Source: a virus (lineage: Duplodnaviria; Heunggongvirae; Uroviricota; Caudoviricetes). From it: DNA of 18,974 bases. The stretch lies in IMG/VR virus record IMGVR_UViG_2711768057_000002; one strand, 5' to 3'. The translations under genes and the position numbers were made by a program. Shown piece after piece: positions 2,012-18,974 of the stretch; the stretch's first letter is position 1; every line of letters starts with the position of its first letter. The notes under the pieces were generated by a model. It was given only the letters and a program-made list of their open reading frames with translations. It had not been told where the DNA came from and did no database searches.

Positions 2012-2132
2012 GTTGGTTCAGTTGGTTCAGTTGGTTCAATTTGTAAAGAGCGTTGTTTTTATTGTGTTTTTTCTAAAATATTGAACCAACATCAACTCAT
2101 TTTGAACCAACACAGCCCAGCTCTGAACCAAC
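2012..2132. promoter_or_regulatory. Operator/iteron array: GTTGGTTCA x3 in tandem (2012-2038) and its reverse complement TGAACCAAC x3 (2092-2100, 2103-2111, 2124-2132)
   Basis: Six exact copies of a 9-mer forming a large dyad in the divergent intergenic region between the PerC-like gene (minus) and the RHH/HTH gene (plus). Confidence 0.7.
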
Positions 2133-3875: not shown

Positions 3876-4155
3876 ATTCATATCGTTATCCACTACAGGC
3901 TGTGTCAATAATTTTTACCTATTAATTGGGTAATTTCTACATTTTCCTATGCTGGCTAGTTTCTCTACTGAAAAGTTGGCACTCCTTAATCGCTTTTCGG
4001 TTAATACTATCGGTCTTCATATTGCCAGCAGCATACGCCATCCGATAATTTCGATGCTACGCGCGCGTACTTGTCGCAAAATATCAGGCAAAGGCCAGAT
4101 TCAGAACGTCGTGATAACCACCAGCACAACATGAGATGTCATGTAACACGATTTA

Positions 4156-4473
4156 TCACACCAGATACATGTGATTGGTGTACCCGCATAAAACATTGTC
4201 ATAGCGCGTCCTGTGCGCATATACGCCGATAATCAACACATCGCCACCACTCTGACTTATGTAGAGAACAGTTTTATGGTACTCCCCTCCATCGTGCGCG
4301 TACTTGTCTCGAAATTGGTGTTTTGCTGTGGCAGTGATATCAGAAAAATCTTCCTGTTTCACATAAAGCGGATATGCGCGTACTGTAACGGCCCCATCAA
4401 CTGGGAGCGGATTTGAAATCCCGACCCAAGCTATGTACCAAATGCCATGTCTTGGATATATGATGATTGCCAT
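4156..4473 (-). CDS. Hypothetical protein (start uncertain; ORF open to 4602)
   Basis: C-terminal about 80 aa have protein-like composition, but no SD precedes either candidate ATG and the 5' part overlaps the better-supported plus-strand membrane ORF. Confidence 0.25.
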   Translation of the reverse strand: MAIIIYPRHGIWYIAWVGISNPLPVDGAVTVRAYPLYVKQEDFSDITATAKHQFRDKYAHDGGEYHKTVLYISQSGGDVLIIGVYAHRTRYDNVLCGYTNHMYLV

Positions 4474-4877: not shown

Positions 4878-6995
4878 CTAGTCATTATCTGGATCATTAG
4901 ATAGCCAAGTAATGATGCCCAGTCTGGCGATGGTCCGTTTTTCCTGTTCAGGAAGAGAGTTAAAAAAACTCTTCCATTGAGGGGAGCGCCTGATACGTGA
5001 ATCAACAATGTGCCCAGGCGCTTTTCCGTGTAGATTTTTTACTGCGCTCTGGAAGGCTGGCGAGGCAATTAATTTATCCGCAGCATCAGCCGCCCCTGCT
5101 CCACCAGCTAATCGAGCTTTACTCGCCAATCTTGCTCCAATATCAGCCCCAGCAATGGCTCCAAGCGATCCAAAATGAGCGCCTACCATCGTGCCTATTT
5201 TTTGAATGTGTTTTGCTGCTAGTTCGTATGGAGCTGTTACCCGATTAAATCTGTTTACAAACTCATTCAGCTTACCAGTAGATATTTCATGCGCTTTAGC
5301 ATTTTTTATTGCTCTGGCAACTTTGTATACATCATATAGTCCGCTCATTGTTTCTTTTGGCAAATGTTCAGCCAAAGTCTTTAGCTGTCCACTGTGTTGC
5401 AAGTTTTGCCACCAATCTGCAAAGCCAGATGGATTAAAGTCGGCCCCACGCTTCCCAGAGGAAAGCATATCTCTTAATGCTGTTCCTACTAGCTCCCTTC
5501 GCAATGTTCTTGATGGAGTATTTTGCATAATCTCACGAAACCCTCTCGCATCACCTTTTGCCATAGATTGAAGAGAATTCGTTACTTTATACGCTATATC
5601 CCCATTAAGTGTTTTCCCGCGAAGATTTACCATTTGCCTTTCTAAGTTTTTTCTCATAGCTACAAGGCGTTGTGCGACTTCGAAATCTCGCAAGTATCCA
5701 GTATTGGATAAGACAGATTTTTGGTCTTCAGCTAAAGCTCCATATAGTCTTGATAGCGCTTCTTTATCAGCATCTTTGTATGGCCCCTGCTTTTTATTTA
5801 GGGCATCACCAACTAAACGCCTTTGCCTGTTTAAATTTGCATACGTTAGGATGCTATCTGGGCCGGGGTTTATTGCTGTAAAAACTCGCTTTTCTATTGG
5901 GTCAAGATTATCCCACCCTCCTAAATCATCAGCGATTTTTTCCAGCATAGTGCTTGTGTTATTTGCTTCGACTTTTGTTCTTGGTGATAGAGCGGAATCA
6001 ACACGTTTATATAACTGATCACTACGGTTTTTTAGTGCTTCCATTCTACTATTTATCTGATAAATATATTTTTCGCTCATAGCTAACGCATCTGGCGCAC
6101 CAGCAACATCATCGATTATCTTGCCAGCACTAGAGGCTAATTCGCTTATTGCTTTATCTTCTTGAGCTTTTAACGCTGATCCTGTCCGTGACTTTAGGGC
6201 TTGCTCTACAGCTTGGTATTGCTCATTTCCTGATAAATGAGAAGGAAGAACTGAATCAACATGAAGCCTATTTGCAGCCTCAACAATTTCTTTCTGAGGT
6301 TTTAGATCTAGCCCTTCAAGCGAAGAGGCAAGATTTGGGTTGCCTTGTGCAGATAACTTACGAATTTTCTCTTCGGCAGGAGTAATCCCCTCAATATCTG
6401 GAATCGAAGAAACATTCTTCTTGGTTAATTTCCCAGCTATTTTATTAATTGCAGGGCCAGCAAGTTCGGCTACAGGGCCAGCCACAGCGCCAATAGCAGC
6501 GCCGGAAGCAACATCGCTATTTGTTCCATTGGCTACAATAGCCCCTTCTCCAGCACCAAGCCCTGCGGCGGCAGCCAGTCTTGCCGCCCCTTTGGGAACC
6601 TGAGAAATAATCCCACCACCACTAACAAATGGCGCTGCTTGTCCAACGAACTCACCAACATCTTGTGCGGTTGATGGTTTTGCCGCTAACTTCTGCTGTA
6701 GAGACTGAATTGCGGCTTGCTCTTCTGGTGTCATATCCTGAAACAGGCCAACACCTTTACCAACATCCATCAATCCACTGAGAACGCCATACATAAAACG
6801 GTCGAAACCGTTAGCATTATTAACAACATTTTCCTGTCTGGAATTTTCCTCTGGTGAAACCAAAGGTGATTGCTGCTGTTCTGGTTGGGCATCAAGCACA
6901 AAACCATCAGGAAGCTGTGAACTATCAGGAAACTGTGAGTTATCAGGTTGTTCATCGAGCACAAAACCTTCCGGTAAGATTACATTTGCTGCCAT
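4878..6995 (-). CDS. Hypothetical 705-aa protein: acidic Pro-rich N-terminus with tandem repeat, Gly/Ala-rich hydrophobic segments
   Basis: Long ORF; its ATG overlaps the upstream gene's stop by 16 nt (translational coupling); no catalytic motif recognised. Confidence 0.8.
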   Translation of the reverse strand: MAANVILPEGFVLDEQPDNSQFPDSSQLPDGFVLDAQPEQQQSPLVSPEENSRQENVVNNANGFDRFMYGVLSGLMDVGKGVGLFQDMTPEEQAAIQSLQQKLAAKPSTAQDVGEFVGQAAPFVSGGGIISQVPKGAARLAAAAGLGAGEGAIVANGTNSDVASGAAIGAVAGPVAELAGPAINKIAGKLTKKNVSSIPDIEGITPAEEKIRKLSAQGNPNLASSLEGLDLKPQKEIVEAANRLHVDSVLPSHLSGNEQYQAVEQALKSRTGSALKAQEDKAISELASSAGKIIDDVAGAPDALAMSEKYIYQINSRMEALKNRSDQLYKRVDSALSPRTKVEANNTSTMLEKIADDLGGWDNLDPIEKRVFTAINPGPDSILTYANLNRQRRLVGDALNKKQGPYKDADKEALSRLYGALAEDQKSVLSNTGYLRDFEVAQRLVAMRKNLERQMVNLRGKTLNGDIAYKVTNSLQSMAKGDARGFREIMQNTPSRTLRRELVGTALRDMLSSGKRGADFNPSGFADWWQNLQHSGQLKTLAEHLPKETMSGLYDVYKVARAIKNAKAHEISTGKLNEFVNRFNRVTAPYELAAKHIQKIGTMVGAHFGSLGAIAGADIGARLASKARLAGGAGAADAADKLIASPAFQSAVKNLHGKAPGHIVDSRIRRSPQWKSFFNSLPEQEKRTIARLGIITWLSNDPDND

Positions 6996-8323
6996 TTTCC
7001 GTTCCTGTAAATGATTTTCTGACCAGTTTTAGGGTTGGTTGCCGTTGCGCCTTCTGATATTCCTCCGGTTGCCGCTTTTGCCTGTCCAGTGCCAGCCTGT
7101 GATGTAGGCTGCCCGGAAACATCGTCAAATAGCTTCGCTTTCCTTCTTTCAAGGCTTTTTCTTAGCCCCTGAGGAATAGTTTCTCCATATGTATCGAGAT
7201 ACTCGTCAACCTGCTGGTTAAACTGCTGCCCCATAGCATTGGCGTTGATTTTTGCGGCGTTAACAATGTTATCCTTTGCCTCCTGCGACAGGCCGTTTCC
7301 AGCATTAAGCTGGTCTATGTATCCTTTGATTTGTCCCCATATGCCATCAGACCGCATTACCTGAACCTGTTCGCCTTCACGAACGACTGACTGCGGGTCA
7401 AGAGATTTCATGTAGTTGAAGATAATCCCAAGTTGGGCAGCGCCAGTATTTACCTTGCTAAGGGCTTGCAGAGAGTTTGCCGCCGCTCTGACAGAGTTAT
7501 AATTTTTGCCAAAATTGGTAATGTCAGAATTTAATCCCTTAATTAAGTCTGCTGACGGCTTACCTTTTTGCCCCAGCTCCATTAGCTTCAATCCCATCTC
7601 ATCTGAGTGAATTTGTGCTCGCTGAGCCCTGTCTAGTTGAGCGTTCTGGATATTTGCCCATCCTCTCGCGTTCTCCATGTCAGCCTGACGCATACTTTCA
7701 TCCAGTCGCCCTTGCTCAAGTCGACGACCTTCCATTTGATCTTTGATATCGAAATACTTCTCATGACCGAGAGAAAACAGCGCCAGATTACCTGCGAAAT
7801 GCTGGAAGCCCTGCGGGTCATTAACCTGCATTTCAGCAATAGTTTCTGGAGGGATACCTAAACGACGCATCTCCTGCTCATTATCCATCATGAACCTGCC
7901 AAATGCGCCCTGACCAAGCGATGAGGCTACCTGTGCTTTGAGCGCCAGATTGCCATAATCATCCCTTTGAGCATCATCGACATAACTCATCCCTTTACGG
8001 ACTTCCTCAAACTCTTCTGGGAATGCTGTAATAAGATTACGCATCTGCTCCCTGTCACCGGACGCATAAGCATCTGCATAACCTTTCTGGAATGCCGCTT
8101 TACGCTCCTGCTGTTGCTGCTGCTTATAAATATCAGCAACTCCAGCCAGACCTCGAAGACCTGTCAGACCAACGTTATTTGCACCTGAGCGAGCCAGTTC
8201 ATTGTTTTCGCGGATCAGACCAAGCGTTGCGTTAATGTCGCTTGCCTTTGGCGCATTCTCATTTTGCGCACCAATGCCAGCCAGAAAACCACCAGAATTA
8301 ATACCCTGTTTCCACGTAGCCAT
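6980..8323 (-). CDS. Hypothetical 447-aa protein, Gln/Asn/Ala-rich, probably largely helical (start ATG 8323; track shows GTG 8335)
   Basis: ATG at 8323 lies 4 nt after the stop of the 57-aa ORF (TAAATCAATG); MATWKQGINSGG N-terminus; no Walker or nuclease motifs seen. Confidence 0.8.
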   Translation of the reverse strand: MATWKQGINSGGFLAGIGAQNENAPKASDINATLGLIRENNELARSGANNVGLTGLRGLAGVADIYKQQQQQERKAAFQKGYADAYASGDREQMRNLITAFPEEFEEVRKGMSYVDDAQRDDYGNLALKAQVASSLGQGAFGRFMMDNEQEMRRLGIPPETIAEMQVNDPQGFQHFAGNLALFSLGHEKYFDIKDQMEGRRLEQGRLDESMRQADMENARGWANIQNAQLDRAQRAQIHSDEMGLKLMELGQKGKPSADLIKGLNSDITNFGKNYNSVRAAANSLQALSKVNTGAAQLGIIFNYMKSLDPQSVVREGEQVQVMRSDGIWGQIKGYIDQLNAGNGLSQEAKDNIVNAAKINANAMGQQFNQQVDEYLDTYGETIPQGLRKSLERRKAKLFDDVSGQPTSQAGTGQAKAATGGISEGATATNPKTGQKIIYRNGKWQQM

Positions 8324-8327
8324 TGAT

Positions 8328-8501
8328 TTACCCACGTCCAGTTAAAGTGTAAGCCAGCGCCTTATCCATTAATCCCCGAGCAATTTCGTGGATCGTTGGC
8401 GCAACTCCTACCTCTGATTTTTTACGCTGCTCCTCCTGAATTTTCTTTATCGCTTCCATTTGCTTCTCACTTATCAATACCGGCTTTACTGAAATAGCCA
8501 T
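8328..8501 (-). CDS. Small 57-aa protein MAISVKPVLISEKQMEAIKKIQEEQRKKSEVGVAPTIHEIARGLMDKALAYTLTGRG (not in ORF track; below its size cut-off)
   Basis: Translated by hand from the minus strand; strong SD AAGGGGG 5 nt upstream of ATG 8501; stop TAA 8328-8330; strand-then-helices pattern compatible with a small RHH-like DNA-binding protein (inference). Confidence 0.5.
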   Translation of the reverse strand: MAISVKPVLISEKQMEAIKKIQEEQRKKSEVGVAPTIHEIARGLMDKALAYTLTGRG

Positions 8502-8516
8502 AACGCCCCCTTAGAA

Positions 8517-8563
8517 CTGTATAAAACAACAGTCATTATAGTTTCATAAAACGCAATATTCAT
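8517..8563 (-). promoter_or_regulatory. Candidate sigma70 promoter (-35 ATGAAT 8563-8558, 17-nt spacer, -10 TATAAT 8540-8535) overlapped at the transcription start by a LexA-box-like site CTGTATAAAACAACAG (8517-8532)
   Basis: Perfect TATAAT hexamer on the minus strand; CTGT-N8-ACAG with one perfect CTGTAT half-site, 3 nt downstream of the -10 and 16 nt upstream of the ATG at 8501. Confidence 0.4.
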
Positions 8564-8594
8564 CATTGTGATTGCAAAATATGAAACAAATAGC

Positions 8595-8629
8595 ACAAAA
8601 AAATGCCACCGCTCAGTAGCTGGTGGCAT
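8595..8629 (-). terminator. Rho-independent terminator (minus strand): ATGCCACC-11 nt loop-GGTGGCAT followed by TTTTTTTG
   Basis: Perfect 8-bp GC-rich stem (8603-8610 / 8622-8629) followed on the minus strand by a run of 7 T; separates the upstream genes from the SOS-box promoter. Confidence 0.6.
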
Positions 8630-8994
8630 CGTTCTGTATGTCAGGTTTTGACAGGTTTTTTATGGACTCTAAAAACTATATTTACGATGTCGCATTACTC
8701 TTCACGGCAGGCGCTTTCCAGTTCTGCCCTTGCTTCTGGCTCCATTGGTAATTTGATTCGCGATCAGCTATGCGGATGGTTTGCTGAACAGGCATAACAA
8801 CATCTCAGAGGCTATTTTTTGAACTACGAAAATTTCGTAGGTCTCTCCTTCAAAAACGTCACGCCCTTGTACACTGGATTTTACAAAAGTCTCGTAAAAC
8901 TCTTTGCTGTTCTGGGCTATGTGCCAAACCGCAGCGAATACCTCCGTCTGCCAGATGAGCAAAACATACCTTATAAAGAAAATCGCTGTTTTTG

Positions 8995-9098
8995 CTGTAC
9001 CACCTGTACCACCATGTCACAAACCCTTGTGTGACGCGGCCTGCAGGTGGTACAGGTGGGTAAAAATGACCTCTCCCCACCTGTACAGACCTGTACCA
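8995..9098. repeat. Iteron cluster A: TGTACCACC x2 direct (8996-9013), inverted copy GGTGGTACAGGTGG (9047-9060), ACCTGTAC(C) x2 (9078-9097); internal palindrome GTCACA-N8-TGTGAC (9016-9035)
   Basis: Read directly from sequence; same core motif (ACCTGTACCACC / GGTGGTACAGGT) as cluster B about 1.1 kb away. Confidence 0.6.
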
Positions 9099-9103
9099 TT
9101 TAT

Positions 9104-9841
9104 TTAATTTTTACCCATAGCAGCACATAATCCCTTTTTTGAAATATTGAAAAATGCGTTCATTCTTCCCGCTGGCTTAACCTTGTAGCCGCTTGCCACC
9201 ATCGCCGCAATAAATGCTCCGTTGGGGATATAGTGCGGGTGATCACTGTGCTGGTGGTTTATCTGGTTATATCGCTCCACTTCATGCTTCAACGTGTCAG
9301 ATGTGGGGTTATCCTGCGGGAAGCTCTCAATCTGGGCATTACTCATCCCGTTGTCTCTGATCCATCTCAGGCAGCTTTTCGCCGATACGATAAATGACGG
9401 GTTATCAAGCGGGTTTTCCCAGTCCGCATTCCGGTTGTGGAGCGCCAGTCCGTCAAGGTTAAATTGTGGGTATTCAGCGGTAATTACTGTCACTGCGTGG
9501 CGGATTTCAGTCTCGTCACAACATGGCTCATCTCCCACACCAGCAGGGTAATAATCTGAACCACCGGGACTGATACAGCGTTTACCACTGAAAGGCCATT
9601 GCTTCGCCATTTCGGGTGTTGAGTGATTACCGTCGCTCCGTTCGCGCTGTGCCTCTGTCCACTGGCTGGCATATTCAGTAAATGAAACCCTTTGCCCCTG
9701 ACGCATCCAGTGCGCAATCATAATTAAAGTGCGTTCCAGACTTTGGATGTCGCCAGCATTCCCGCACTGTGTAGCGAAACTTTTTAATTCTTCGCGCTCC
9801 GTTCTGGTCATTCCCTGCGGTATGCAATAGTTATTGCTCAT
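9104..9841 (-). CDS. Hypothetical 245-aa protein
   Basis: SD GAGAGG 7 nt upstream of ATG 9841; start overlaps the upstream 76-aa ORF stop (translational coupling). Confidence 0.65.
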   Translation of the reverse strand: MSNNYCIPQGMTRTEREELKSFATQCGNAGDIQSLERTLIMIAHWMRQGQRVSFTEYASQWTEAQRERSDGNHSTPEMAKQWPFSGKRCISPGGSDYYPAGVGDEPCCDETEIRHAVTVITAEYPQFNLDGLALHNRNADWENPLDNPSFIVSAKSCLRWIRDNGMSNAQIESFPQDNPTSDTLKHEVERYNQINHQHSDHPHYIPNGAFIAAMVASGYKVKPAGRMNAFFNISKKGLCAAMGKN

Positions 9842-10058
9842 GTTTTACCTCTCTGATTTCTGCTGCCATATCTGTTGGCTCTATACAGCCGTCCCGACTT
9901 GCCACGCAGGGAATAATGATTTCAACGGTATCGCCGTCAATACACATTTCAACATTCGCCCATGCCGCAATGGGTAGCCAGTCTGAACGCCCCTCAAACC
10001 GTAGCTGCCAGCCAGAGGAAGAAGCTAACTGGCGCACTTTGTAAAATGGTGTGCTCAT
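9831..10058 (-). CDS. Hypothetical small protein (75-76 aa; ATG at 10058 or 10061)
   Basis: SD GAGAGGA 9-12 nt upstream of the tandem ATGs; stop overlaps the downstream gene's start. Confidence 0.5.
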   Translation of the reverse strand: MSTPFYKVRQLASSSGWQLRFEGRSDWLPIAAWANVEMCIDGDTVEIIIPCVASRDGCIEPTDMAAEIREVKHEQ

Positions 10059-10104
10059 CATTGGTTGTTTCCTCTCAGCCAGCCAGAAGAAATGCGTTTG
10101 TTAA

Positions 10105-10210
10105 TGGTATAGGTGGTACAGGTCTGGTATAGGTAAGATATTGACCTGTACCACTATAACGCACTGTTTTTAATACTGAATTAGCAAAGTGGTATAGGTG
10201 GTACAGGTAA
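10105..10210. repeat. Iteron cluster B (putative replication-origin-like element): GGTGGTACAGGT at 10112-10123 and 10197-10208, inverted ACCTGTACCAC at 10144-10154, flanking TGGTATAGGT repeats; A-rich stretch 10209-10255 follows
   Basis: Read from sequence; lies immediately downstream of the primase-helicase stop (10238), the position where P4 carries its ori iterons (recalled knowledge). Confidence 0.55.
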
Positions 10211-10237
10211 AAACGATCTTCTTGTAAAAAGACTATA

Positions 10238-12589
10238 TTAAAAAACATCATAACCCCCCATACCGATCAGACGGGCAAACGCAGCCTGTAGAACTCCGAC
10301 CTCTGGTAGTTCGTAGAACACGCCATTCCCTCGGTCTGGTCTTCCATGCTTCACCAGCCCCATTTGTGCAAGTGATTTACCCAGTAGTGATCTGGCTGCT
10401 GGCTCTTTAAGCTTTTCCCCACGCTCAAGCGACCACGCTACAAATCGACTAACCATATCCTTTGCAAACAAACGGACTTCGCCATTAAACGGAGGTTCAT
10501 TGATTAGCTCGCCATAAAGAAACAATTCAACGCCAGACAGCCCCAGCAAGATTTCTTCACGTAAGGCATCGGTCTGTGGCGCTCGTTGAGGGTCAAAACC
10601 TGAGAGATCCACCCCTTTAAGATGCCAAAGCAACTTTGCGGCACCGCCATCATTAAGCCAACTGTACAGCCGATCAAAATACTCCCGACTCTGTGCTTTT
10701 TCAGGAGATGGCTCAAGCACGAGATAGCGACGCTCTCTTATCCCTGCCTGTAATACCTGTGTGCTGTTACTGGCAAATATCAACCGGGCAAAATTCGGCA
10801 TTGGTTCAGCATCAATTCCCTTGCGCTCAAGGTTAAACGTCGGTTCGCTAATAATCGCTTTAAGTCTGTCAGCTTCAGACGGCTTGTGGATCGTCACTTC
10901 GTCAGCAAATACCAGTAGCTTGTTAGCAAGTATTGAATTGAAGCGCCCTGAAATATGTCCCGCCCCGTTAATGTGGGCGGCGTACTGCCCCAGTATTTGC
11001 AGCAGCGGTTTAACCGTTGTGCCTTTCCCTGTGCCCGGGACAGATTTCATCACGATTGCCACGGACGGTTTTTCATCAGGCTTTTGGATAATGTGCGCCA
11101 TCCACTGGATAAGATATTGGTATGCCTCCTCATTACCGGCACAGACAACCTGCAACAGGTGATTAAGGTATACCGTGCAATCTCCTTCAATTGGTTCCAG
11201 TGCCAGCCCCTCATACAGATTAAAAACATCGTCAGGGCATTTGTCTGGTACTGGATAAAATCCTACGCCTCCTGGCTTGTAGTTCTTCCCACTCCATGAC
11301 AGCCACGCCGATCCCGCCAGCTTTCTGGCGACTCTCGGTTTATGATGAAAATAATGCTGAAATTGTGATAAATCCTCGAAAACGTGCGATACACCGCCGG
11401 TTTGAGAAGGCTTTAGCGACACCACCTTGTGTTTCCCGCCGATGGTGACATGCGTAAACGTCCGGTTGATTTCTTCGAGGACAGCAATTTCATCATCGCT
11501 TAACACCTCGCCAGAACTGATCTCATTCAGCGCCCCGACTGACTGTTTGTGATTTTTCACCTGCGCCCCTTTCCCCCGTGGCTGGTACATCGAATCTTTA
11601 AATGCTGCTGTGGCTGCCGCCAGCCCGTGTTGTTGGTGATAGTCGTTCCAGTCGGCTTTATAGTCAGTCGGTGGCAGAGACACCCAGCCAGCTACGGAAA
11701 TAGCGGCCCTCTCTGCGGCATCTTTCCCCGTGTTGATCCCTCCACTTTCTGAGTCTCCTTGCTGGTGATCGTTATCTGCGGCAATGATTATTTGTGCCTG
11801 CGGATATGTTCTGCGCATGACTTCCGCTACTGGCAACAGGTTGCCAGCGTCGATTGCTGCCACTGTCATTGCGTCAGGGCGAATTAAATGGCACGACAGG
11901 GCGGTAGCCACCCCCTCAGCAATTATGATGCTGTGAGGTCGTTTCTGTGCGTTTATGGCGTGATATGCCCCCCGCTTTGCCGAACCTGTCAGGAGTCTTT
12001 TTTCACCATGTGGGGTAATAGTCTGTGCTGCTGTGACTGCGCCGGATTTATCCACCAGCGCCAGCAACAGAGATCCATCGGGCAACACGGGGAATGTAAA
12101 ATCACCTACCCCTTTCGCAACCAGATAATCAGATTTGCCGTTTACAGCCTTTCTGCGCATGTCATCAAACTGACGGGAAAACGTATCCCGTCTTTGTTGT
12201 TCGTCCTTCTCTGCCCTTTTCAGGCGCTCCTGTTCGCGTCGCTGGCGCTCGGTTTCCAGTTGTTCCCGTTTCTGGCTGGTGGCTTCTGGTGTTTCCGTTG
12301 TCCGGTAATCAATACCCAGAACATCAGCGGCAAGAAGCGCCGCCTCTGTTGTGTCGCAGTTATTTACGCGTTTAATTAAATCCAGCCCATCACCAGCGCC
12401 GCACTGATTACAGATGAAGCTACCGCGCCCGTTGTCATCGAACCGGAATCGATCTTTGCCCCCACATGCAGGGCAGGGAGCATGACGGCGCGGAGAGTCA
12501 GGGACATTTATGTTCAGGCAGCCCAGCACATGAGGCCAGTTGTTTTCAGACGCACTGATAACCTGACGGATAAGATCAATGTTTCGCAT
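10238..12589 (-). CDS. P4-alpha-like primase-helicase (zinc-finger/Toprim primase domain plus P4-family NTPase domain), 783 aa
   Basis: N-terminal Cys motif CPACGGKDRFRF...FICNQCG; Toprim-like IIIAEGVATALS and AADNDH; Walker A MKSVPGTGKGTT and Walker B LLVFADEV; size close to P4 alpha (777 aa); SD GGGGG upstream of ATG. Confidence 0.92.
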   Translation of the reverse strand: MRNIDLIRQVISASENNWPHVLGCLNINVPDSPRRHAPCPACGGKDRFRFDDNGRGSFICNQCGAGDGLDLIKRVNNCDTTEAALLAADVLGIDYRTTETPEATSQKREQLETERQRREQERLKRAEKDEQQRRDTFSRQFDDMRRKAVNGKSDYLVAKGVGDFTFPVLPDGSLLLALVDKSGAVTAAQTITPHGEKRLLTGSAKRGAYHAINAQKRPHSIIIAEGVATALSCHLIRPDAMTVAAIDAGNLLPVAEVMRRTYPQAQIIIAADNDHQQGDSESGGINTGKDAAERAAISVAGWVSLPPTDYKADWNDYHQQHGLAAATAAFKDSMYQPRGKGAQVKNHKQSVGALNEISSGEVLSDDEIAVLEEINRTFTHVTIGGKHKVVSLKPSQTGGVSHVFEDLSQFQHYFHHKPRVARKLAGSAWLSWSGKNYKPGGVGFYPVPDKCPDDVFNLYEGLALEPIEGDCTVYLNHLLQVVCAGNEEAYQYLIQWMAHIIQKPDEKPSVAIVMKSVPGTGKGTTVKPLLQILGQYAAHINGAGHISGRFNSILANKLLVFADEVTIHKPSEADRLKAIISEPTFNLERKGIDAEPMPNFARLIFASNSTQVLQAGIRERRYLVLEPSPEKAQSREYFDRLYSWLNDGGAAKLLWHLKGVDLSGFDPQRAPQTDALREEILLGLSGVELFLYGELINEPPFNGEVRLFAKDMVSRFVAWSLERGEKLKEPAARSLLGKSLAQMGLVKHGRPDRGNGVFYELPEVGVLQAAFARLIGMGGYDVF

Positions 12590-12601
12590 TCTGGCCCCCG
12601 T

Positions 12602-13204
12602 TTAGTGCGTCACTGGTGCTTCTGGGATGCCGTTTTCGTTTAGTTCGGCAATAAAGCTGTTGTGAAGATCGGCAAGCACTTCTCGCCCAAACGAAGTGAG
12701 TGTTCCCTGTTCGACATCGAACATGTTGCTGTAAAAAATGATGGCATTCTTTGTTCCGACATCAACACCATATTTCTCGATCATTGCGCCCTCAATGTTG
12801 TTTGCCATAGCGAGGCGCTCTGCTACTGGATACAGCGGCATGGCGACGATGCCATTGGAATAAACAGAAACCACGGAATGATTGCCACTGTCATCAATAA
12901 TGCTGACGGTGCCGTTTTCCTTTCTCATTTCATTGATGAATGCTGTTGCTATCAGCCAGCGCCACATAATCACGTGATGCTGTGATGTGTAATCGAAATA
13001 TCCCTGGTTGCCGCCACTGGCAATAGCGAGATGTATAAACATGCCTTCATCTGGTTTATCGTCATAATCCCCGGCATCCAGACGATTTACGGCATCAATA
13101 TATGAGACGGTCTCAACGCGTTCTGTCATGCCATCGTTGCTGCGGTGCATGATGTTTACGCCGTCAGGCGTTGCTTCTGCATGGAAAGTTAAGAAATTAT
13201 TCAT
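12602..13204 (-). CDS. Hypothetical 200-aa protein immediately upstream of the primase (start ATG 13204; track extends to 13309)
   Basis: ATG 13204 preceded by SD GAGG 7 nt upstream and located 2 nt after the stop of the upstream ORF (ATGAATAA overlap). Confidence 0.65.
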   Translation of the reverse strand: MNNFLTFHAEATPDGVNIMHRSNDGMTERVETVSYIDAVNRLDAGDYDDKPDEGMFIHLAIASGGNQGYFDYTSQHHVIMWRWLIATAFINEMRKENGTVSIIDDSGNHSVVSVYSNGIVAMPLYPVAERLAMANNIEGAMIEKYGVDVGTKNAIIFYSNMFDVEQGTLTSFGREVLADLHNSFIAELNENGIPEAPVTH

Positions 13205-13418
13205 GTTTCGCCTCGCCTGAATGATTCTGTAACTCATATTTGCCCAACAATTCGTCTGCTTCCTGAATAGCTTCTGGTACGCCATTGAGCAGTGACATAA
13301 CCGCGCCAATCATTAACTTGTCTCTGTTGCTGGGGCTGGCCCCTTCAAGCCAGAACCCTAAAACAGTCTGAACCTGTTCGATGCGACATTGCGCTTCAAT
13401 GAGCTGGATGTTGGTCAT
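13197..13418 (-). CDS. Hypothetical 73-aa protein
   Basis: SD GGAGAG 7 nt upstream; ATGA start/stop overlap with the upstream ORF. Confidence 0.55.
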   Translation of the reverse strand: MTNIQLIEAQCRIEQVQTVLGFWLEGASPSNRDKLMIGAVMSLLNGVPEAIQEADELLGKYELQNHSGEAKHE

Positions 13419-13678
13419 TTCGCACTCTCCACATCGATTAAACCGATATCTATCAGGGAGGTAACTTTTTGTAGCCAGCTATTGATTACTGTCGCCTGTT
13501 CCCCTCCCACCGAGGGAACAATCTCATTCATCACATGAACCAGACCTGTGCGCGCTCTGGTAAGCCGTTCAGTCGCGCAATCTGCGGGAGTGAATGTGTC
13601 TGGATATGGCTCTTCGCGCCCCAGCAATGATTCAATTTCCAGCTCACACGGATGACGATAAATTAAGTTGATATTCAT
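13415..13678 (-). CDS. Hypothetical 87-aa protein
   Basis: SD GGGGGTG 5 nt upstream; ATGA overlap with the upstream ORF. Confidence 0.55.
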   Translation of the reverse strand: MNINLIYRHPCELEIESLLGREEPYPDTFTPADCATERLTRARTGLVHVMNEIVPSVGGEQATVINSWLQKVTSLIDIGLIDVESAK

Positions 13679-13869
13679 TTTTCACCCCCAAGAATTACCA
13701 GCTCGGCACGGGCATCGTTAACCAAAGATGAGCACGCTTTAATCGCATCCACGACATCAGCAGCGTCCATTTCTTCAGCCGAAAGACTGACAGCAATCAG
13801 GACAGCCGCTGCTTGCTCGATTAATTGAAGTGCGGACGTAAGGCGAGGGGTATTAATTGAGTTATTCAT
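13675..13869 (-). CDS. Hypothetical 64-aa protein
   Basis: SD GGGGG 6-7 nt upstream; start overlaps the stop of the 342-aa ORF (ATGAATAA). Confidence 0.55.
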   Translation of the reverse strand: MNNSINTPRLTSALQLIEQAAAVLIAVSLSAEEMDAADVVDAIKACSSLVNDARAELVILGGEK

Positions 13870-14890
13870 TGGTTGCCCCCGTTTTTACTGGCATTTCGCC
13901 ACCTTCCAGCAGGAAATGAACGTCACGAACGGCGAGATCCAATATCGCGAGTAACGCCTTCAGTCTTTCGTCTCGTGAGGGAGAGTTGCTCACCAGAATG
14001 TCGTTAATCACTTCTGTCAGTGTGATGATCTGGCTTGTGCGTTCGAGGGGATCCATATGCACATCGTAGGTTTTAATCATGTGCCACCTCCATGCGGATA
14101 CGACCAGCAAAAAAGCAGACGTGATCGCGCACCAGAGAACGGCGAGCATCGCGTTCAGACTCGGCAGCAATATGATGAATTTTGGCGGTAATTGTCGGGC
14201 AATCGCGGCGAACTGCGGCGATAATCCAGATAAATTGCGGTTTTTGGGTAGGGGTAGTAGCCAGCATGTGGCAGCCTCCTTGATTGATGGTTTATAGCCA
14301 CCGCCCAAGAGACCAATCTTGCTGGCGGTGGACTGTACGGAGTTGGCCTTACTGGCAATCAAGGAAACCAGCCTACCCGAAGGTAGCCCCATACAGCCCA
14401 CCATTGATAAGGTGTGCGTGTGCGCCGATACAAAAAAAGACGCTGGCGCGTCATGTATCGCCTCGATTGTCAGCGGGAGGCCAATCCCGGCACCCGTTTT
14501 ATGAGGTGCCTTATAACCATAAACCGTGTTGCCGCATAACGGCAAGCTCTTTTTTATGGACTCCGAAAACTCACTATTGGAAGCACCAGATGCACAATAC
14601 ATCGCGCTCATTTCGTTAACGTCACGCGCATGGACGAAGGTTTTTGTGGAGTCACTACACGAGCGGAAGACATCATCTACGACCAGAAATTTTCTGGCGC
14701 AGCCGCTGACCTTCTCAATGCTAATATCATCGCCCGAGATTTCTGGTATGGTTAAGGCATCCGTTCCGACCACCAGCAAATGATAAACTTTGCTTGTATC
14801 TGCTGTATTAATGCCTGACTTTGCCGTCATATTGCTGGATTTTGGCGACATACCAGCCAGTGAAAATGTCTTCTTCTGGACGGGTATCAT
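13862..14890 (-). CDS. Hypothetical ORF (342 aa as drawn; possibly composite, see findings)
   Basis: Start at 14890 well supported (SD GGAGG 7 nt upstream, ATGA overlap with upstream gene); the central part has odd composition and an in-frame ATG at 14080 has its own strong SD GGAGGTG. Confidence 0.45.
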
Positions 14891-15066
14891 TGGTTAACCT
14901 CCGCGAACTCCTTCATGAAACGCGCCAGCGGTTGTACGCATGGCGATTGATACCCGTCGCGATAAAACGTCACTCGGTTGTGAGACACGCTTTCGACAGT
15001 AACGAGTGCTCCGTGGGCATCTTTGTAGCGTTTTTGTGGTTGTGGTATTCCTGTTGGCTTAGACAT
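14887..15066 (-). CDS. Hypothetical 59-aa protein (track ORF 14887-15153 trimmed to ATG 15066)
   Basis: SD GGAGG 7 nt upstream of ATG 15066, which overlaps the stop of the antirepressor-like gene (ATGTCTAA). Confidence 0.5.
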   Translation of the reverse strand: MSKPTGIPQPQKRYKDAHGALVTVESVSHNRVTFYRDGYQSPCVQPLARFMKEFAEVNQ

Positions 15067-15892
15067 TGAGCGCCTCCAGACGCTTGGCGAGCCAGCGTTG
15101 CGACAGGCGGGTGAGTTCTCCTTTGCGCTGCTCATATTCCATGCCCATATCAATTAACGTGATATTGGTGCTTTCGAGATATGAGAGGTGCTCAAGCTGT
15201 TCTGCGTTCATATGGTCGCGAGGTTCGCCAGAATAGCCATTTATCCGCGCCCACTGCTTAGCAGTTAGCCCACCAAGAACGATACGAGAAATCATATTGC
15301 TCTCGTTTGTGTAGTGGTGTTGCTGCGTCGTTTTCCCCATCTCGGCACGGGCCATATTCAGCGCATCGCACATTGGCTTAAAGTTGTTTGCGGCACTGAT
15401 ACGGGCTTTTAGCTGGCGACGATAGCGGGCGGCGATTTCAGGCACGCTACGCTGTAATTCTTCCTCGCACTGGATGAAATAACGACGGATAGCGCGACCC
15501 TGATCATTGCGTTCGATCATTGCCAGTTCTTTCGCCATTCCGACACTTAACAGATAGTCTTTGCCGGGTCTGCCAGAGTGCTTAATCTTGCTGTAAGCCG
15601 CGCCATTCGGGCTTTTCCCCAAATTTGGGGAAATTGTTTTATGGACTGAGTAATCGTGCCCAATGGTGAAGTCATATTCAGAGATGCGATCAGTGATCCA
15701 TGTAGAGAAGTCTTTTCCCACGCCCAACGCTTTGTGTAACGCTTTTGCGCTAACAATATTGGTTTCACGCCCACCTATATGACCAGAAATAACCGGGACA
15801 ATTGCGGCAAATTCATTACCGTTAATTGTGCTCAGAGAGGCGTTCAGATGAGGGGCGGCCTCAGAAATTAATCTGCTTTTTTCGATGTTCAT
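15059..15892 (-). CDS. Phage antirepressor-like protein (AntA-type N-terminal domain), 277 aa
   Basis: VSAKALHKALGVGKDFSTWITDRISEYDFTIGHDY matches the AntA/AntB antirepressor N-terminal motif from memory; SD GGAG 8 nt upstream. Confidence 0.65.
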   Translation of the reverse strand: MNIEKSRLISEAAPHLNASLSTINGNEFAAIVPVISGHIGGRETNIVSAKALHKALGVGKDFSTWITDRISEYDFTIGHDYSVHKTISPNLGKSPNGAAYSKIKHSGRPGKDYLLSVGMAKELAMIERNDQGRAIRRYFIQCEEELQRSVPEIAARYRRQLKARISAANNFKPMCDALNMARAEMGKTTQQHHYTNESNMISRIVLGGLTAKQWARINGYSGEPRDHMNAEQLEHLSYLESTNITLIDMGMEYEQRKGELTRLSQRWLAKRLEALNV

Positions 15893-15904: not shown

Positions 15905-16336
15905 TTAGGCGGCGTTAAACGCGTCCGGGTAGAGTTTCAGAATGTCGGCAATTTCCTGCTGAGAAAGTCCGTTGTGATCATTTATGTTCGCAAGATGGTT
16001 AACATGAGTGATCACTTTCAGAACATCACCACGGCAGGAGAAACGGTAGCGAAGGTGTGTTCCGATACCATCAGGATTCTTTTCGTCGATACGCTCCAGA
16101 GTGATTCCAAGCTGGCGTTCTAACTCTGTTGCATAGTTACGACCAGAAGACAGACGGCAGTAGCGAAGAATGTCATTTTCTGTCCATCCCTCTATACCAG
16201 TACGCAGCATATAGACTCTGGCACGATGCTTTTTCGGTGTGCGCTTTGGTGCTTGAAGGGATTTTGTCAGGGGCGTAACATCAGATACGCGAATATCTGA
16301 ATTAGCCGCCTGTAATGGGCGGTTTTTCTTTTCCAT
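15905..16336 (-). CDS. Hypothetical 143-aa basic protein
   Basis: Start ATG shares one nucleotide with the alpA stop (TGATG overlap). Confidence 0.6.
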   Translation of the reverse strand: MEKKNRPLQAANSDIRVSDVTPLTKSLQAPKRTPKKHRARVYMLRTGIEGWTENDILRYCRLSSGRNYATELERQLGITLERIDEKNPDGIGTHLRYRFSCRGDVLKVITHVNHLANINDHNGLSQQEIADILKLYPDAFNAA

Positions 16337-16539
16337 CAGGCCACCTTCCCGCGGCGTTCTGCTAGCCAGTTGTGAATCTCAACCGCATCAAACGCAGTTA
16401 TTTTTTCTCCCAGCTTTACCGGACGTGGTAGTGAACCGTTTCTTACTTTACGGTCGATGGTGGATACACTAACGCCCAGCAATTCAGCCAGGCGGAAGCG
16501 TCTGATATAGCCTTTTGTAGGAATAGTGTCGGTGTTCAT
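16336..16539 (-). CDS. alpA: AlpA-family phage regulatory protein / excisionase-like HTH protein (67 aa)
   Basis: RFRLAELLGVSVSTIDRKVRNGSLPRPVKLGEKITAFDAVEIHNWL matches the AlpA/Vis-type HTH family pattern. Confidence 0.85.
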   Translation of the reverse strand: MNTDTIPTKGYIRRFRLAELLGVSVSTIDRKVRNGSLPRPVKLGEKITAFDAVEIHNWLAERRGKVA

Positions 16540-17714: not shown

Positions 17715-18974
17715 TTAGTTCGCCCTTCTGAGAGGCGTTACGTTGTAGTCTTTTCCGCTTTCCAGTGCCACCAGCAGATCAGCCCACTGTGCCAGTGCTG
17801 CTTTACGCTCATCAAAATACTGATGGCGGTTATAAATCCCCTCTACGCCCTTAATGCGATGATTGAGGCATCGTTCCGCCACAACAGGATCAACACCCAA
17901 CGCTGCTAAATGAGTACGTGCGGTGCGTCGGAAGTCGTGAATCGTGAAATTAGGCACATCCGGCATTTCGGCGCGAACCTTAGCCAGTGCTACGGGTAAA
18001 GTGCTTTCCTGAATATGTGGGATCATTCTGTTTTGCATCTTCCTGGCCGGAAGCACCCATGCGCTATTACATGAAAAGGTGTGTAGCTCTCTCAACCATT
18101 CAACGGCTGGGGAAGGTAGAGGTATATCAATAGGGTCTCCGTTTTTGCTGCGTTCTTCCGGCAAATGCCATACCGCACCATCTAAATCAAACTCTTCCCA
18201 TCGTGCGGCGCATAACTCCATCTTACGAACGCATAGTGCCAGCAATAGCTTAAATGTCAGTTCGTTCTGGCGGCTGAATCCTTTTGCGGTGCGCATAGCC
18301 TCGAATAGCCTGATAAGCTCATCGCGAGTTAGCCAACGGTCGCGGGAAACCTCTTTACCACCAGCATCAGATACTTCAAACGCTGAACAAGGGTTTATCT
18401 CCAGAGCGTGGCGTTTTATCCCATAGTCAAAGATACGGCGTGTCCAGCGTAATACATCTGTTGCTATCGTTGGTGCTCCTCGGTCAACGATACCTTTCAA
18501 CATGTCGTCAATGTGGCGTGGCTTAACGTCCTCTACCTTCATATGCCCAATGCAGGGGTTAATATCCTTATCAATTCTCCGGCGAAGGATATCGGGATGT
18601 TTCCATCTCGGAAGTATCTGGCGCTCGAAGTATTCGGAGGCCAGATCTGAAACACGCATGGCGTTTTTCTCAGCCTCCATTTTTGCCAGTGCTTCAGCTT
18701 TTCGTTCCTGTTTCTCTGCTGCTACGTCATAGCCAAGAGCAACTCTGGCTGACAGCTCTTTTGCTGTTTCTCTGGCTTTTGATAGTGACAGTTCGGAGTA
18801 AGAGCCTATAACCATAGCCCGCTGCTTTCCTGCGAGCTTATAGCGGAATCGCCAGAACGGGACTGTGTAGTTTTTGGGGTAGCAAATATAAAGGCCGTTG
18901 CCGTCTGCCTTGCCATCAAATCTGTCTCCCGCCTTTATCCATGCGCGGATCTGCATATCTGTGAGTTTTGGCAT
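17715..18974 (-). CDS. Tyrosine site-specific integrase, P4/CP4-57 family (419 aa, start codon is the last 3 nt of the window)
   Basis: N-terminus MPKLTDMQIRAWIKAG...GLYICYPKNYTVPFWRFRYKLAGKQRAMVIGSYSELSLSKARE is the typical P4-like integrase arm-binding domain; C-terminal catalytic region HDFRRTARTHLAALGV...LNHRIKGVEGIYNRHQY carries the R...H-x-x-R...Y signature. Confidence 0.95.
   Translation of the reverse strand: MPKLTDMQIRAWIKAGDRFDGKADGNGLYICYPKNYTVPFWRFRYKLAGKQRAMVIGSYSELSLSKARETAKELSARVALGYDVAAEKQERKAEALAKMEAEKNAMRVSDLASEYFERQILPRWKHPDILRRRIDKDINPCIGHMKVEDVKPRHIDDMLKGIVDRGAPTIATDVLRWTRRIFDYGIKRHALEINPCSAFEVSDAGGKEVSRDRWLTRDELIRLFEAMRTAKGFSRQNELTFKLLLALCVRKMELCAARWEEFDLDGAVWHLPEERSKNGDPIDIPLPSPAVEWLRELHTFSCNSAWVLPARKMQNRMIPHIQESTLPVALAKVRAEMPDVPNFTIHDFRRTARTHLAALGVDPVVAERCLNHRIKGVEGIYNRHQYFDERKAALAQWADLLVALESGKDYNVTPLRRAN

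What the first reader, a model, noticed from the sequence alone, without database searches (positions are those of the whole stretch)
8995..10210. Two clusters of GGTGGTACAGGT iterons bracketing the genes downstream of the primase: candidate ori/crr pair
At least eight copies of a 9-12-bp motif in both orientations form two clusters 1.1 kb apart (8995-9098 and 10105-10210). Cluster B lies immediately downstream of the alpha-like primase-helicase stop and next to an A-rich stretch. In P4, alpha binds iterons in ori and a second cis replication region (crr); that knowledge is recalled, and applying it here is inference. The same sites could instead be operators for a satellite or helper regulator.
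Basis: partly seen in the sequence, partly recalled or inferred. Interest (0 to 1): 0.6.

Follow-up and report, generated by a model that had tools for sequence, protein, structure and literature searches.

The report
Split replication origin of a phage satellite
The two repeat clusters are most likely the two halves of the replication origin of an E. coli phage-satellite island, bound by the island's own primase-helicase; this is a familiar design, here pulled 1 kb apart by two inserted genes.

Summary
Eleven copies of a 9-bp unit, GGTAYAGGT (the 12-mer is two abutting units), form two clusters at 8993-9097 (A) and 10106-10208 (B). That is 13 hits in the window against about 2 expected (0 of 200 shuffles).

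The window is an E. coli island between yicC and dinD with integrase, AlpA, primase-helicase and PerC. This matches a Gram-negative phage-inducible chromosomal island (PICI), not a true P4-like satellite.

- **What the motif follows.** It tracks the helicase plus winged-helix half of the 783-aa protein in 11 of 11 related loci, including a 7.6-kb Vibrio plasmid. It is absent from loci that share only the primase domain or only the 245-aa gene.
- **Sister island.** A sister E. coli island has swapped exactly window 8904-11567 for another helicase half with different iterons.
- **Cluster B.** It has the layout of the P4 ori: 2 sites, an AT-rich spacer, 1 inverted site, 3 sites.
- **Cluster A.** It is an inverted copy of B with a GC-rich spacer.
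- **Relatives.** In some, and in the experimentally validated EcCICFT073 ori, the two units are adjacent. Here two genes lie between them.

Verdict: a new member of a known kind of origin. Binding and origin activity are inferred, not tested.

The parts
10238..12589 (-). 783-aa primase-helicase, the presumed initiator (Pri-Rep): Zn-ribbon primase motif, Toprim_3 and a DUF5906 SF3-type helicase core
   Evidence: Pfam domains. PHROG 'DNA primase' families. The N-terminal aa 7-337 are 33% identical to P4 alpha, and nothing else aligns by BLASTP.
10256..10543 (-). C-terminal winged-helix domain (about aa 683-778), the presumed iteron-recognition domain
8904..11567 (-). Exchangeable replication module: helicase plus winged-helix half (codons 341-783), cluster B, the 76-aa gene, the 245-aa gene and cluster A
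   Evidence: The window and sister island L027 align at 94-98% identity on both sides (7725-8903 and 11568-15538) but not across this stretch. About 340 E. coli genomes share only 8700-8903 of the queried region 8700-10500.
10106..10208 (-). Cluster B, the ori-like unit. Read in primase sense: 2 abutting sites, a 38-nt spacer, 1 inverted site, then 3 sites (start-to-start gaps 9, 47, 18, 11, 9)
   Evidence: The site offsets from the stop codon are conserved in Buttiauxella, Pantoea and Raoultella. The layout is the same as the P4 ori and as the first unit of the EcCICFT073 ori.
10153..10190 (.). AT-rich 38-nt spacer inside cluster B (71% A+T against 54% for the window), the candidate melting region
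   Evidence: The homologous spacers are 68-87% A+T in L002, L031 and L028. The P4 ori spacer is 35 nt and 83% A+T.
9831..10061 (-). 76-aa gene of unknown function, lying between the two origin units
   Evidence: ORF, translation, no Pfam or PHROG hit. Present in W, L002, L003, L031 and L028 and as a partial match in the L035 remnant. Absent from L034, L036, L037, L089 and L127, which still carry the motif.
9104..9841 (-). 245-aa gene of unknown function, lying between the two origin units. The model contains a winged-helix-like domain
8993..9097 (+). Cluster A, the crr-like second unit. It is an inverted paralogue of B: 2 abutting sites, a 38-nt spacer, 1 inverted site, a degenerate site, then 2 sites
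   Evidence: Side-by-side comparison. Outer inverted-repeat arms 8989-9012 and 10189-10212 are 24 nt and 88% complementary. Conserved in Buttiauxella, Raoultella and Xenorhabdus. Lies directly next to the B unit in L089, L127 and EcCICFT073.
9011..9048 (.). GC-rich 38-nt spacer of cluster A (42% A+T), with the palindrome GTCACA-N8-TGTGAC at 9016-9035
   Evidence: A palindrome sits in the equivalent spacer of L089 and EcCICFT073.
2012..2132 (+). Orphan ori-like unit of the other specificity: 3x GTTGGTTCA, a 43-nt AT-rich spacer, then 3x TGAACCAAC. It lies upstream of perC
   Evidence: In sister island L027, whose DUF927-type replicase is followed by this same kind of unit, the perC-side copy is inverted relative to the unit after the primase gene and lies 6 kb away.

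Best explanation
Clusters B and A are the two units of the iteron-type replication origin of a Gram-negative PICI.

Proposed mechanism:
1. After induction, the island's 783-aa primase-helicase recognises the 9-bp GGTAYAGGT sites through its C-terminal winged-helix domain.
2. It assembles on cluster B, melts the 38-bp AT-rich spacer there, loads itself as an SF3 helicase and primes synthesis with its own Toprim primase domain.
3. Cluster A is an inverted copy of the same unit with a GC-rich spacer, 1 kb away. It is a second binding region that acts in cis with B through a protein-mediated DNA loop, as crr does with ori in P4.
4. In relatives the two units are contiguous. In this lineage two genes (76 aa and 245 aa) sit between them.

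Shown here:
- the sites, their statistics and their conservation;
- their linkage to the helicase/winged-helix half of the protein;
- the module swap with the sister island;
- the shared architecture with the P4 ori and the validated EcCICFT073 ori.

Inferred, not shown:
- binding by the winged-helix domain;
- melting at the B spacer;
- looping between B and A;
- any requirement for A.
For: 1. **Location rule.** Every locus with a full-length primase-helicase of this superfamily has an iteron array starting about 25-30 bp after the stop codon. The iteron sequence changes with the C-terminal half: GAACCAAC, ACGGGTTA, AGACAACA, ATCCCTAC, CGGTCACA, CTGTACCA.
2. **Co-occurrence.** The GGTACAG/ACAGGT motif family is found next to the helicase/winged-helix half in 11 of 11 loci: W, L002, L003, L031, L035, L028, L036, L037, pMP1/L034, L089 and L127. 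This holds whether or not the primase domain, the 76-aa gene or the 245-aa gene is present. The motif is absent from 22 loci that share only the primase domain, and from L029, L030 and L032, which share only the 245-aa gene.
3. **Concerted change.** In Xenorhabdus both clusters read GGTACAGWT.
4. **Module swap.** The window differs from sister island L027 exactly across 8904-11567. L027 has a DUF927 half and GTTGGTTCA iterons, while its regulators stay 94-97% identical.
5. **Natural replicon.** The 7.6-kb plasmid pMP1 encodes a 34%-identical helicase/C-terminal protein as its only replication-type gene. It has about 10 GGGTACAGTTAA iterons in two inverted sets.
6. **Winged-helix C-terminus**.
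7. **Architecture.** B has the P4 ori layout, and A is inverted like crr. EcCICFT073, whose cloned pri-rep-ori segment let a temperature-sensitive plasmid form colonies at the restrictive temperature, with far fewer colonies when rep or ori was deleted (PMC6092414), has the same B-like and A-like units side by side. L089 and L127 also have them adjacent.
8. **Footprint.** Sites are conserved while spacers diverge.
Against: - There is no experimental binding or replication data for this element.
- The C-terminal half has no BLASTP similarity to P4 alpha and no Pox_D5 hit.
- The 245-aa protein between the clusters also models with a winged-helix-like domain, so a second DNA-binding factor cannot be excluded.
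- The Pantoea locus L003 has cluster B but no cluster A. However, its primase gene is truncated, so the element may be decaying.
- The loci compared are related, so the co-occurrence counts are not independent events.
- No DnaA box or IHF consensus was found in 8900-10300. That is neutral.
Confidence: 0.75

Rival explanations
1. Cluster B alone is the origin. Cluster A is not required for initiation. It would be either a negative copy-control or incompatibility locus that titrates or 'handcuffs' the initiator (as incA does in P1 and incC in F; this comparison is from general knowledge), or a functionless leftover of a duplication.
For: - A lacks the AT-rich spacer: 42% A+T against 71% in B.
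- One of its sites is degenerate.
- L003 has B without A.
- Several DUF927-type loci have only one unit after the gene: L004, L006, L010, L018 and L020.
- The window tolerates an orphan unit of the other specificity at 2012-2132.
Against: - A is conserved site by site across genera: 76% of site columns invariant against 33% of other columns.
- It changed in concert with B in Xenorhabdus.
- It travelled with B in the module swap.
- It is part of the contiguous origin region in L089, L127 and EcCICFT073.
- A purely functionless relic would not keep five sites and a 38-nt spacer of exactly the same length.
Confidence: 0.2
2. The sites are transcriptional operators, bound by an island or helper-phage regulator or by the primase-helicase acting as an autoregulator. 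They would control the genes downstream of each cluster (76 aa and 245 aa; the 57-aa gene and the ejection-protein genes).
For: Both clusters lie in intergenic regions upstream of genes on the same strand. Iteron-binding initiators often also repress transcription (general knowledge).
Against: - No sigma-70-like promoter falls in either cluster: 1 hit in 8300-10400, inside the 76-aa gene, against 3.4 expected.
- The regulators AlpA, AntA, Ash and DUF4222 are 94-97% identical at the DNA level in sister island L027, which has quite different repeats at the same place.
- The motif occurs next to the helicase gene in pMP1, L036, L089 and L127, which lack these downstream genes.
- In L089 and L127 the two units are adjacent, with no gene between them.
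Confidence: 0.07
3. The sites are bound by the 245-aa protein (winged-helix-like) or the 76-aa protein encoded between the clusters, not by the primase-helicase.
Against: - A 67%-identical 245-aa homologue, with its C-terminal region highly conserved, sits in AAA_25-type replicons whose iterons are AAAGTGGGG and which have no GGTACAGGT cluster.
- pMP1, L036, L037, L089 and L127 carry the motif without either gene.
Confidence: 0.05
4. The two inverted clusters are the ends of a small mobile or invertible cassette carrying the two genes, that is, recombinase or transposase binding sites.
For: The clusters are inverted relative to each other with 24-nt outer arms. Gene content between them varies among relatives. 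An IS66 element sits near 8917 in L026.
Against: - No recombinase or transposase is encoded inside.
- No target-site duplication was looked for or seen.
- The units stand alone next to replicase genes in many loci, and adjacent to each other in L089, L127 and EcCICFT073.
- The sites covary with the replicase, not with any recombinase.
Confidence: 0.03

Closest known systems
Replication origin of Gram-negative PICIs, e.g. EcCICFT073 (Fillol-Salom et al. 2018, ISME J, PMC6092414)
   Same: - Island layout: integrase, AlpA, one-directional genes, pri-rep, accessory perC.
- The yicC-dinD attachment site is listed for a PICI in that paper's Table S1.
- The origin begins right after the rep stop codon, with sets of short iterons around an AT-rich region.
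- In the CFT073 sequence itself the origin consists of a B-like unit (2 sites, ~40-nt AT-rich spacer, 1 inverted site, 3 sites) followed by an A-like unit with a palindrome-bearing spacer.
   Different: - Iteron sequence: GGTAGAYAR there, GGTAYAGGT here.
- The Rep there is 584 aa with D5_N, DUF5906 and Pox_D5 and no Toprim primase. Here it is 783 aa with Zn-ribbon, Toprim_3 and DUF5906 and no Pox_D5 hit.
- The two units are contiguous there. Here 1.0 kb holding two genes separates them.
Satellite phage P4 ori and crr with the alpha protein (GenBank NC_001609 annotation; Flensburg & Calendar 1987 and Ziegelin et al. 1993, both recalled from memory)
   Same: - A multifunctional primase-helicase of about 780 aa with a C-terminal DNA-binding domain. 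The primase domain is 33% identical, and both proteins carry Zn_Ribbon_Prim, Toprim_3 and DUF5906.
- Two separate clusters of one short iteron, in both orientations.
- The P4 ori layout is 2 sites, a 35-nt spacer of 83% A+T, 1 inverted site and 3 sites. This matches cluster B.
- crr is inverted relative to ori, as A is to B.
- In the Xenorhabdus relative the B-like unit lies 4.9 kb upstream and the A-like unit downstream of the primase gene, which is the P4 arrangement.
   Different: - Iteron is TGTTCACC, not GGTAYAGGT.
- In P4 the cluster just after the alpha stop is crr and the ori is 4.7 kb upstream. Here the ori-like unit follows the stop and the second unit is 1 kb further downstream.
- P4 crr is a tandem pair of 120-bp units.
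- The helicase and C-terminal halves show no BLASTP similarity.
- The island lacks psu, sid and delta.
Sister E. coli islands with a TOPRIM + DUF927 primase-helicase (L027, NZ_CP086500)
   Same: Same island backbone at 94-98% DNA identity on both sides of the module. The origin follows the stop codon. A second, inverted copy of the origin unit lies 6 kb away next to perC.
   Different: Different helicase/C-terminal half. The iterons are GTTGGTTCA, arranged as 3 direct sites, an AT-rich spacer and 3 inverted sites. There are no 76-aa or 245-aa genes.
SaPI replication origins of Staphylococcus aureus (Ubeda et al. 2007, recalled from memory and as summarised in PMC6092414)
   Same: The origin lies immediately 3' of the rep gene, with iteron sets flanking an AT-rich region and an element-specific initiator helicase.
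   Different: Unrelated iteron sequences and hosts. No separated second unit is known to me.

Membership tests
Gram-negative PICI (Fillol-Salom et al. 2018) | Integrase at one end, at an attachment site used by PICIs and not by prophages | tested here: met
   Integrase at 17715-18974 (Pfam). The island lies between yicC and dinD, a site listed for EcCIRM13514 in Table S1 of PMC6092414. That island's 12-bp att core is not inside the window, which ends at the integrase gene.
Gram-negative PICI (Fillol-Salom et al. 2018) | AlpA-type regulator and genes transcribed in one direction | tested here: met
   Phage_AlpA hit for 16336-16539. From the integrase to the ejection-protein genes, all annotated genes are on the - strand.
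Gram-negative PICI (Fillol-Salom et al. 2018) | A pri-rep gene followed immediately by an origin made of iteron sets around an AT-rich region | tested here: met
   Cluster B starts 29 nt after the stop codon and has a 38-nt spacer of 71% A+T. The architecture is the same as in the EcCICFT073 sequence.
Gram-negative PICI (Fillol-Salom et al. 2018) | Induction by a helper phage, autonomous replication, and packaging into phage particles | not testable with these tools
   No lambda-type cosN sequence in the window. No Rpp or TerS homologue was identified. The helper phage is unknown.
P4-like satellites (Moura de Sousa & Rocha 2021, PMC8628076) | At least five of seven components: integrase, psu (PF07455), delta (PF04606), sid, alpA (PF05930), epsilon/Ash (PF10554), alpha (PF03288 Pox_D5) | tested here: not met
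   Integrase, AlpA and Ash are present. The primase-helicase has no Pox_D5 hit. No Psu, Delta or Sid domain was found in the ORFs scanned or in the RefSeq annotation of the same island. Four of seven components are missing.
P4-type ori/crr replication system | One iteron shared by two separated cis regions, in both orientations | tested here: met
   P4 reference annotation.
P4-type ori/crr replication system | The initiator's C-terminal domain binds the iterons of both regions, and the second region is required in cis | not testable with these tools
   Only indirect evidence exists: covariation of motif and C-terminal half, and a winged-helix model.
P4-type ori/crr replication system | The initiator is homologous to P4 alpha over its whole length | tested here: not met
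   BLASTP aligns only aa 7-337, at 33% identity. The domain order is shared (Zn-ribbon, Toprim_3, DUF5906), but D5_N and Pox_D5 are not detected in the window protein.

The most novel reading that the evidence does not exclude
A two-unit origin, with one ori-like unit and one inverted second unit, may be the general design of enterobacterial satellite replicons. The two units could lie anywhere from 16 bp to 6 kb apart, and P4's ori/crr would be one extreme of the series. On this reading, islands such as this one also keep orphan origin units of a foreign specificity (2012-2132). Through such a unit a co-resident satellite's initiator could replicate the island, or be titrated by it, which would amount to cross-talk or competition between satellites.
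Probability: 0.25. Interest if true: 0.55.

Novelty: new member of a known kind. Interest (0 to 1): 0.3.

Why it matters
- **Annotation.** It assigns the origin, and a likely initiator-iteron pair (GGTAYAGGT with a DUF5906 plus winged-helix C-terminal half), to an island carried by about 130 of 5,426 complete E. coli genomes.
- **Evolution of the replicon.** The helicase/origin-recognition half of the replicase and both origin units are exchanged as one cassette, with a junction inside the gene at codon 340.
- **Link between two known systems.** The adjacent, 1-kb, 4.9-kb and 6-kb spacings form a series that connects the contiguous PICI origin to the split ori/crr of P4. This offers a simple way to ask what the second unit does.
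- **Limits.** It does not reveal a new kind of system.

Tried and rejected
- **Phage collection by DNA similarity.** Megablast of 8700-10500 gave no match.
- **Host REP-like repeat.** Rejected. The motif's frequency outside the clusters is at chance level.
- **Scan of viral contigs with the 18-mer ACCTGTACCACCTRTACC.** It gave 120 hits, of which 117 are unrelated. These have no helicase homologue and no two-orientation cluster. Several are head-to-tail runs every 18 nt, probably Gly-rich coding repeats, although I did not verify this. The motif alone is therefore not diagnostic. Only L089, L098 and L127 were relevant.
- **PICI cos site with an Rpp protein.** Rejected. Rpp proteins are 139-154 aa and the PICI cos has no repeated R sequences (PMC9026076). 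There is no lambda cosN in the window.
- **Structured RNA.** Rfam gave only sub-threshold miRNA chance hits.
- **Promoter and terminator scans.** Nothing falls in the clusters.
- **DnaA box and IHF consensus.** None in 8900-10300.
- **Similarity of the C-terminal domain to the P4 origin-binding domain.** Not found by sequence or among the top fold hits.
- **Protein search with the last 220 aa.** It returned mostly fragments, which limited the depth of the alignment used for the model.
- **Literature search for the motif string.** It returned only unrelated papers.
Full report
**1.

Reading 8700-10500 and scanning the window confirms two clusters of one short motif.
- GGTACAGGT with up to one mismatch occurs 13 times against 1.98 expected. 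None of 200 shuffles reaches 13. Ten of the hits lie in 9002-9097 and 10106-10208.
- The repeat unit is a 9-mer, GGTA(C/T)AGGT.
- Counting one degenerate copy (8993-9001), there are five sites in cluster A and six in cluster B.
- Cluster B ends 29 nt from the stop codon of the 783-aa gene (10238-12589, - strand).
- The motif is not a host-wide repeat. Elsewhere in about 290 kb of fetched enterobacterial DNA, and in the E. coli chromosome flanking the island, it occurs at chance frequency.

**2. What the window is**

- The same 1.8 kb is present at 98.9% identity or more in 130 of 5,426 complete E. coli genomes.
- In NZ_CP191548 it lies in an island of about 18 kb between dinD and yicC.
- Reading along the - strand, the island carries: integrase, an AlpA-type regulator, AntA/B, DUF4222, an Ash-family protein, small ORFs, the 783-aa primase-helicase, two unknown genes (76 and 245 aa), two P22-type ejection proteins, an Abi protein and PerC.
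- This is the layout described for Gram-negative PICIs, and yicC-dinD is a listed PICI attachment site (PMC6092414).
- It is not a P4-like satellite by the seven-component definition (PMC8628076). Psu, Sid, Delta and the Pox_D5 marker of alpha are all missing.

**3. The protein**

- The 783-aa protein has Zn_Ribbon_Prim, Toprim_3 and DUF5906 domains.
- P4 alpha has the same three plus D5_N and Pox_D5.
- Only residues 7-337 align with alpha, at 33% identity.
- 'Alpha-like' is therefore fair for the domain plan and for the primase domain. It is not shown for the C-terminal half.

**4. The motif follows the helicase/winged-helix half**

- A search of one genome per species found 24 loci encoding relatives. 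Twenty-two share only the primase domain, and none of them has the motif cluster.
- The two that share the C-terminal half (Buttiauxella L002, Pantoea L003) have it, at the same offsets from the stop codon.
- Further loci extend this:

| Locus | Source |
|---|---|
| L031 | Raoultella |
| L028 | Xenorhabdus |
| L035, L037 | two remnants |
| L036 | small helicase-only satellite |
| L089, L127 | two viral contigs |
| L034 | 7.6-kb Vibrio vulnificus plasmid pMP1 |

- pMP1's only replication-type gene is a 34%-identical helicase/C-terminal protein. The plasmid carries about ten GGGTACAGTTAA repeats in two inverted sets.
- A tblastn table shows the motif family beside the helicase/winged-helix half in 11 of 11 loci. 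This holds with or without the primase domain, the 76-aa gene or the 245-aa gene.
- Conversely, a 67%-identical homologue of the 245-aa protein sits in replicons with an AAA_25 replicase and unrelated AAAGTGGGG repeats.
- The rule is general. All full-length relatives have repeats starting 25-30 bp after the stop codon, and the repeat sequence changes with the C-terminal variant.

**5. A natural swap experiment**

- A sister E. coli island (L027) is 94-98% identical to the window on both sides, but not across window 8904-11567.
- Its primase-helicase switches at codon 340 to a DUF927 half.
- That gene is followed by three GTTGGTTCA sites, an AT-rich spacer and three TGAACCAAC sites. There are no 76-aa or 245-aa genes.
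- The exchanged unit is therefore: helicase/winged-helix half, cluster B, two genes and cluster A.
- The regulators are shared between the two islands while the repeats are not. This argues against the operator reading.
- No promoter-like or terminator-like site falls in either cluster, and no RNA family matches.

**6. Architecture**

- Read in primase sense, B consists of two abutting sites, a 38-nt spacer of 71% A+T, one inverted site, 9 nt, and then three sites.
- Read on the opposite strand, A consists of two abutting sites, a 38-nt spacer of 42% A+T containing a palindrome, one inverted site, a degenerate site, and then two sites.
- A is thus an inverted paralogue of B. The outer arms 8989-9012 and 10189-10212 are 88% complementary.
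- Sites are far better conserved than spacers across genera.
- The P4 ori, read in alpha sense, has two sites, a 35-nt spacer of 83% A+T, one inverted site and three sites. This is the same plan as B. P4's crr units are inverted relative to its ori.
- The origin region of EcCICFT073 shows a B-like unit directly followed by an A-like unit with a palindrome in its spacer. In that paper's assay, deleting rep or ori sharply cut the colonies formed at the restrictive temperature (PMC6092414).
- L089 and L127 also have B and A only 16 nt apart.
- In the window, L002 and L031 the two genes lie between the units.
- In Xenorhabdus a full B-like unit lies 4.9 kb upstream, before the ash gene. Two vestigial sites remain after the primase stop codon, and the A-like unit lies between the 76-aa and 260-aa genes.
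- In the sister island a second inverted copy of its own unit lies 6 kb away next to perC. The window retains that copy, of the foreign specificity, at 2012-2132.

**7. Mechanism**

- Most likely (0.75): the primase-helicase binds the 9-mers through its winged helix and opens the AT-rich spacer of B. It then loads as a helicase and primes synthesis. A is the second unit of the same origin and acts in cis, probably by looping.
- The need for A is the weakest link. It could instead be a copy-control locus, or dispensable (0.2).
- Operators (0.07), binding by the 245-aa or 76-aa protein (0.05) and cassette ends (0.03) are less likely, for the reasons above.
- The 245-aa protein does model with a winged-helix-like domain weakly similar to RFX domains and to the P4 origin-binding domain. 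Its role near the origin remains open.

**8. Novelty and verdict**

- Iteron origins placed 3' of the replicase gene in PICIs, and the ori/crr pair of P4, are both established.
- New here are:
  - a specific motif-protein pairing;
  - evidence that the helicase half and both units move as one cassette;
  - a spacing series that links the contiguous PICI origin to the split P4 arrangement.
- This is a new member of a known kind, of modest interest (0.3).

Noticed in passing
window 2012-2132: A complete origin-like unit of a different specificity: 3x GTTGGTTCA, a 43-nt AT-rich spacer, then 3x TGAACCAAC. It sits upstream of perC, although the island has no DUF927-type replicase. In sister island L027 the same copy (4110-4224) is inverted relative to the unit after its primase gene (10251-10354), 6 kb away.
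   Followed up: partly
window 4878-8335 (- strand): Two P22-type DNA-ejection (injectosome) proteins of 451 and 705 aa (Pfam Inj_translocase; PHROGs 917 and 6704) are encoded in a satellite-like island that has no other virion genes. The sister island L027 shares them. Their role in a satellite is unexplained.
   Followed up: no
window 11567/11568 (codon 340 of the primase-helicase) and about 8904: Recombination junctions of the replication module. One falls inside the gene, between the Toprim primase domain and the helicase half. In L026 an IS66-family element is inserted near 8917, close to the other junction.
   Followed up: partly
[not shown]
   Followed up: partly
window 10070-10090; L027 about 10205-10225; L028 940-980, 5480-5520 and 5945-5985: A short element, CTGGCTGGC followed by AGAG(A)G, lies just beyond the origin unit in both replicon types. 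In Xenorhabdus a related element of about 40 nt (GCCAGCCAGAAAG...CTCTCTGGCG) occurs three times, each just before a gene start.
   Followed up: no
L028 (Xenorhabdus ehlersii) 815-935 and 5440-5470: The full B-like unit has moved to a position upstream of the ash gene, inside what the gene caller extended as coding sequence. Only two decayed sites (ATCTGTATCACAACTGTATCC) remain after the primase stop codon.
   Followed up: partly
L034 (plasmid pMP1) 2181-2480: Besides the GGGTACAGTTAA array at 6577-6929, the plasmid has a second family of repeats (TTCCACGTT / ATGGAAAAC, both orientations) directly after the helicase gene. Its function is unknown.
   Followed up: no
viral contigs L038-L157: The 18-mer made of two abutting sites occurs in more than 117 unrelated viral contigs. 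Several hits are head-to-tail runs every 18 nt, probably Gly-rich (GGT-NNN) coding repeats. I did not check this.
   Followed up: partly
window 8605-8620 (- strand): A terminator-like hairpin followed by a T-run lies about 370 nt beyond cluster A, in sequence shared with the sister island. It may mark the end of the replication operon.
   Followed up: no
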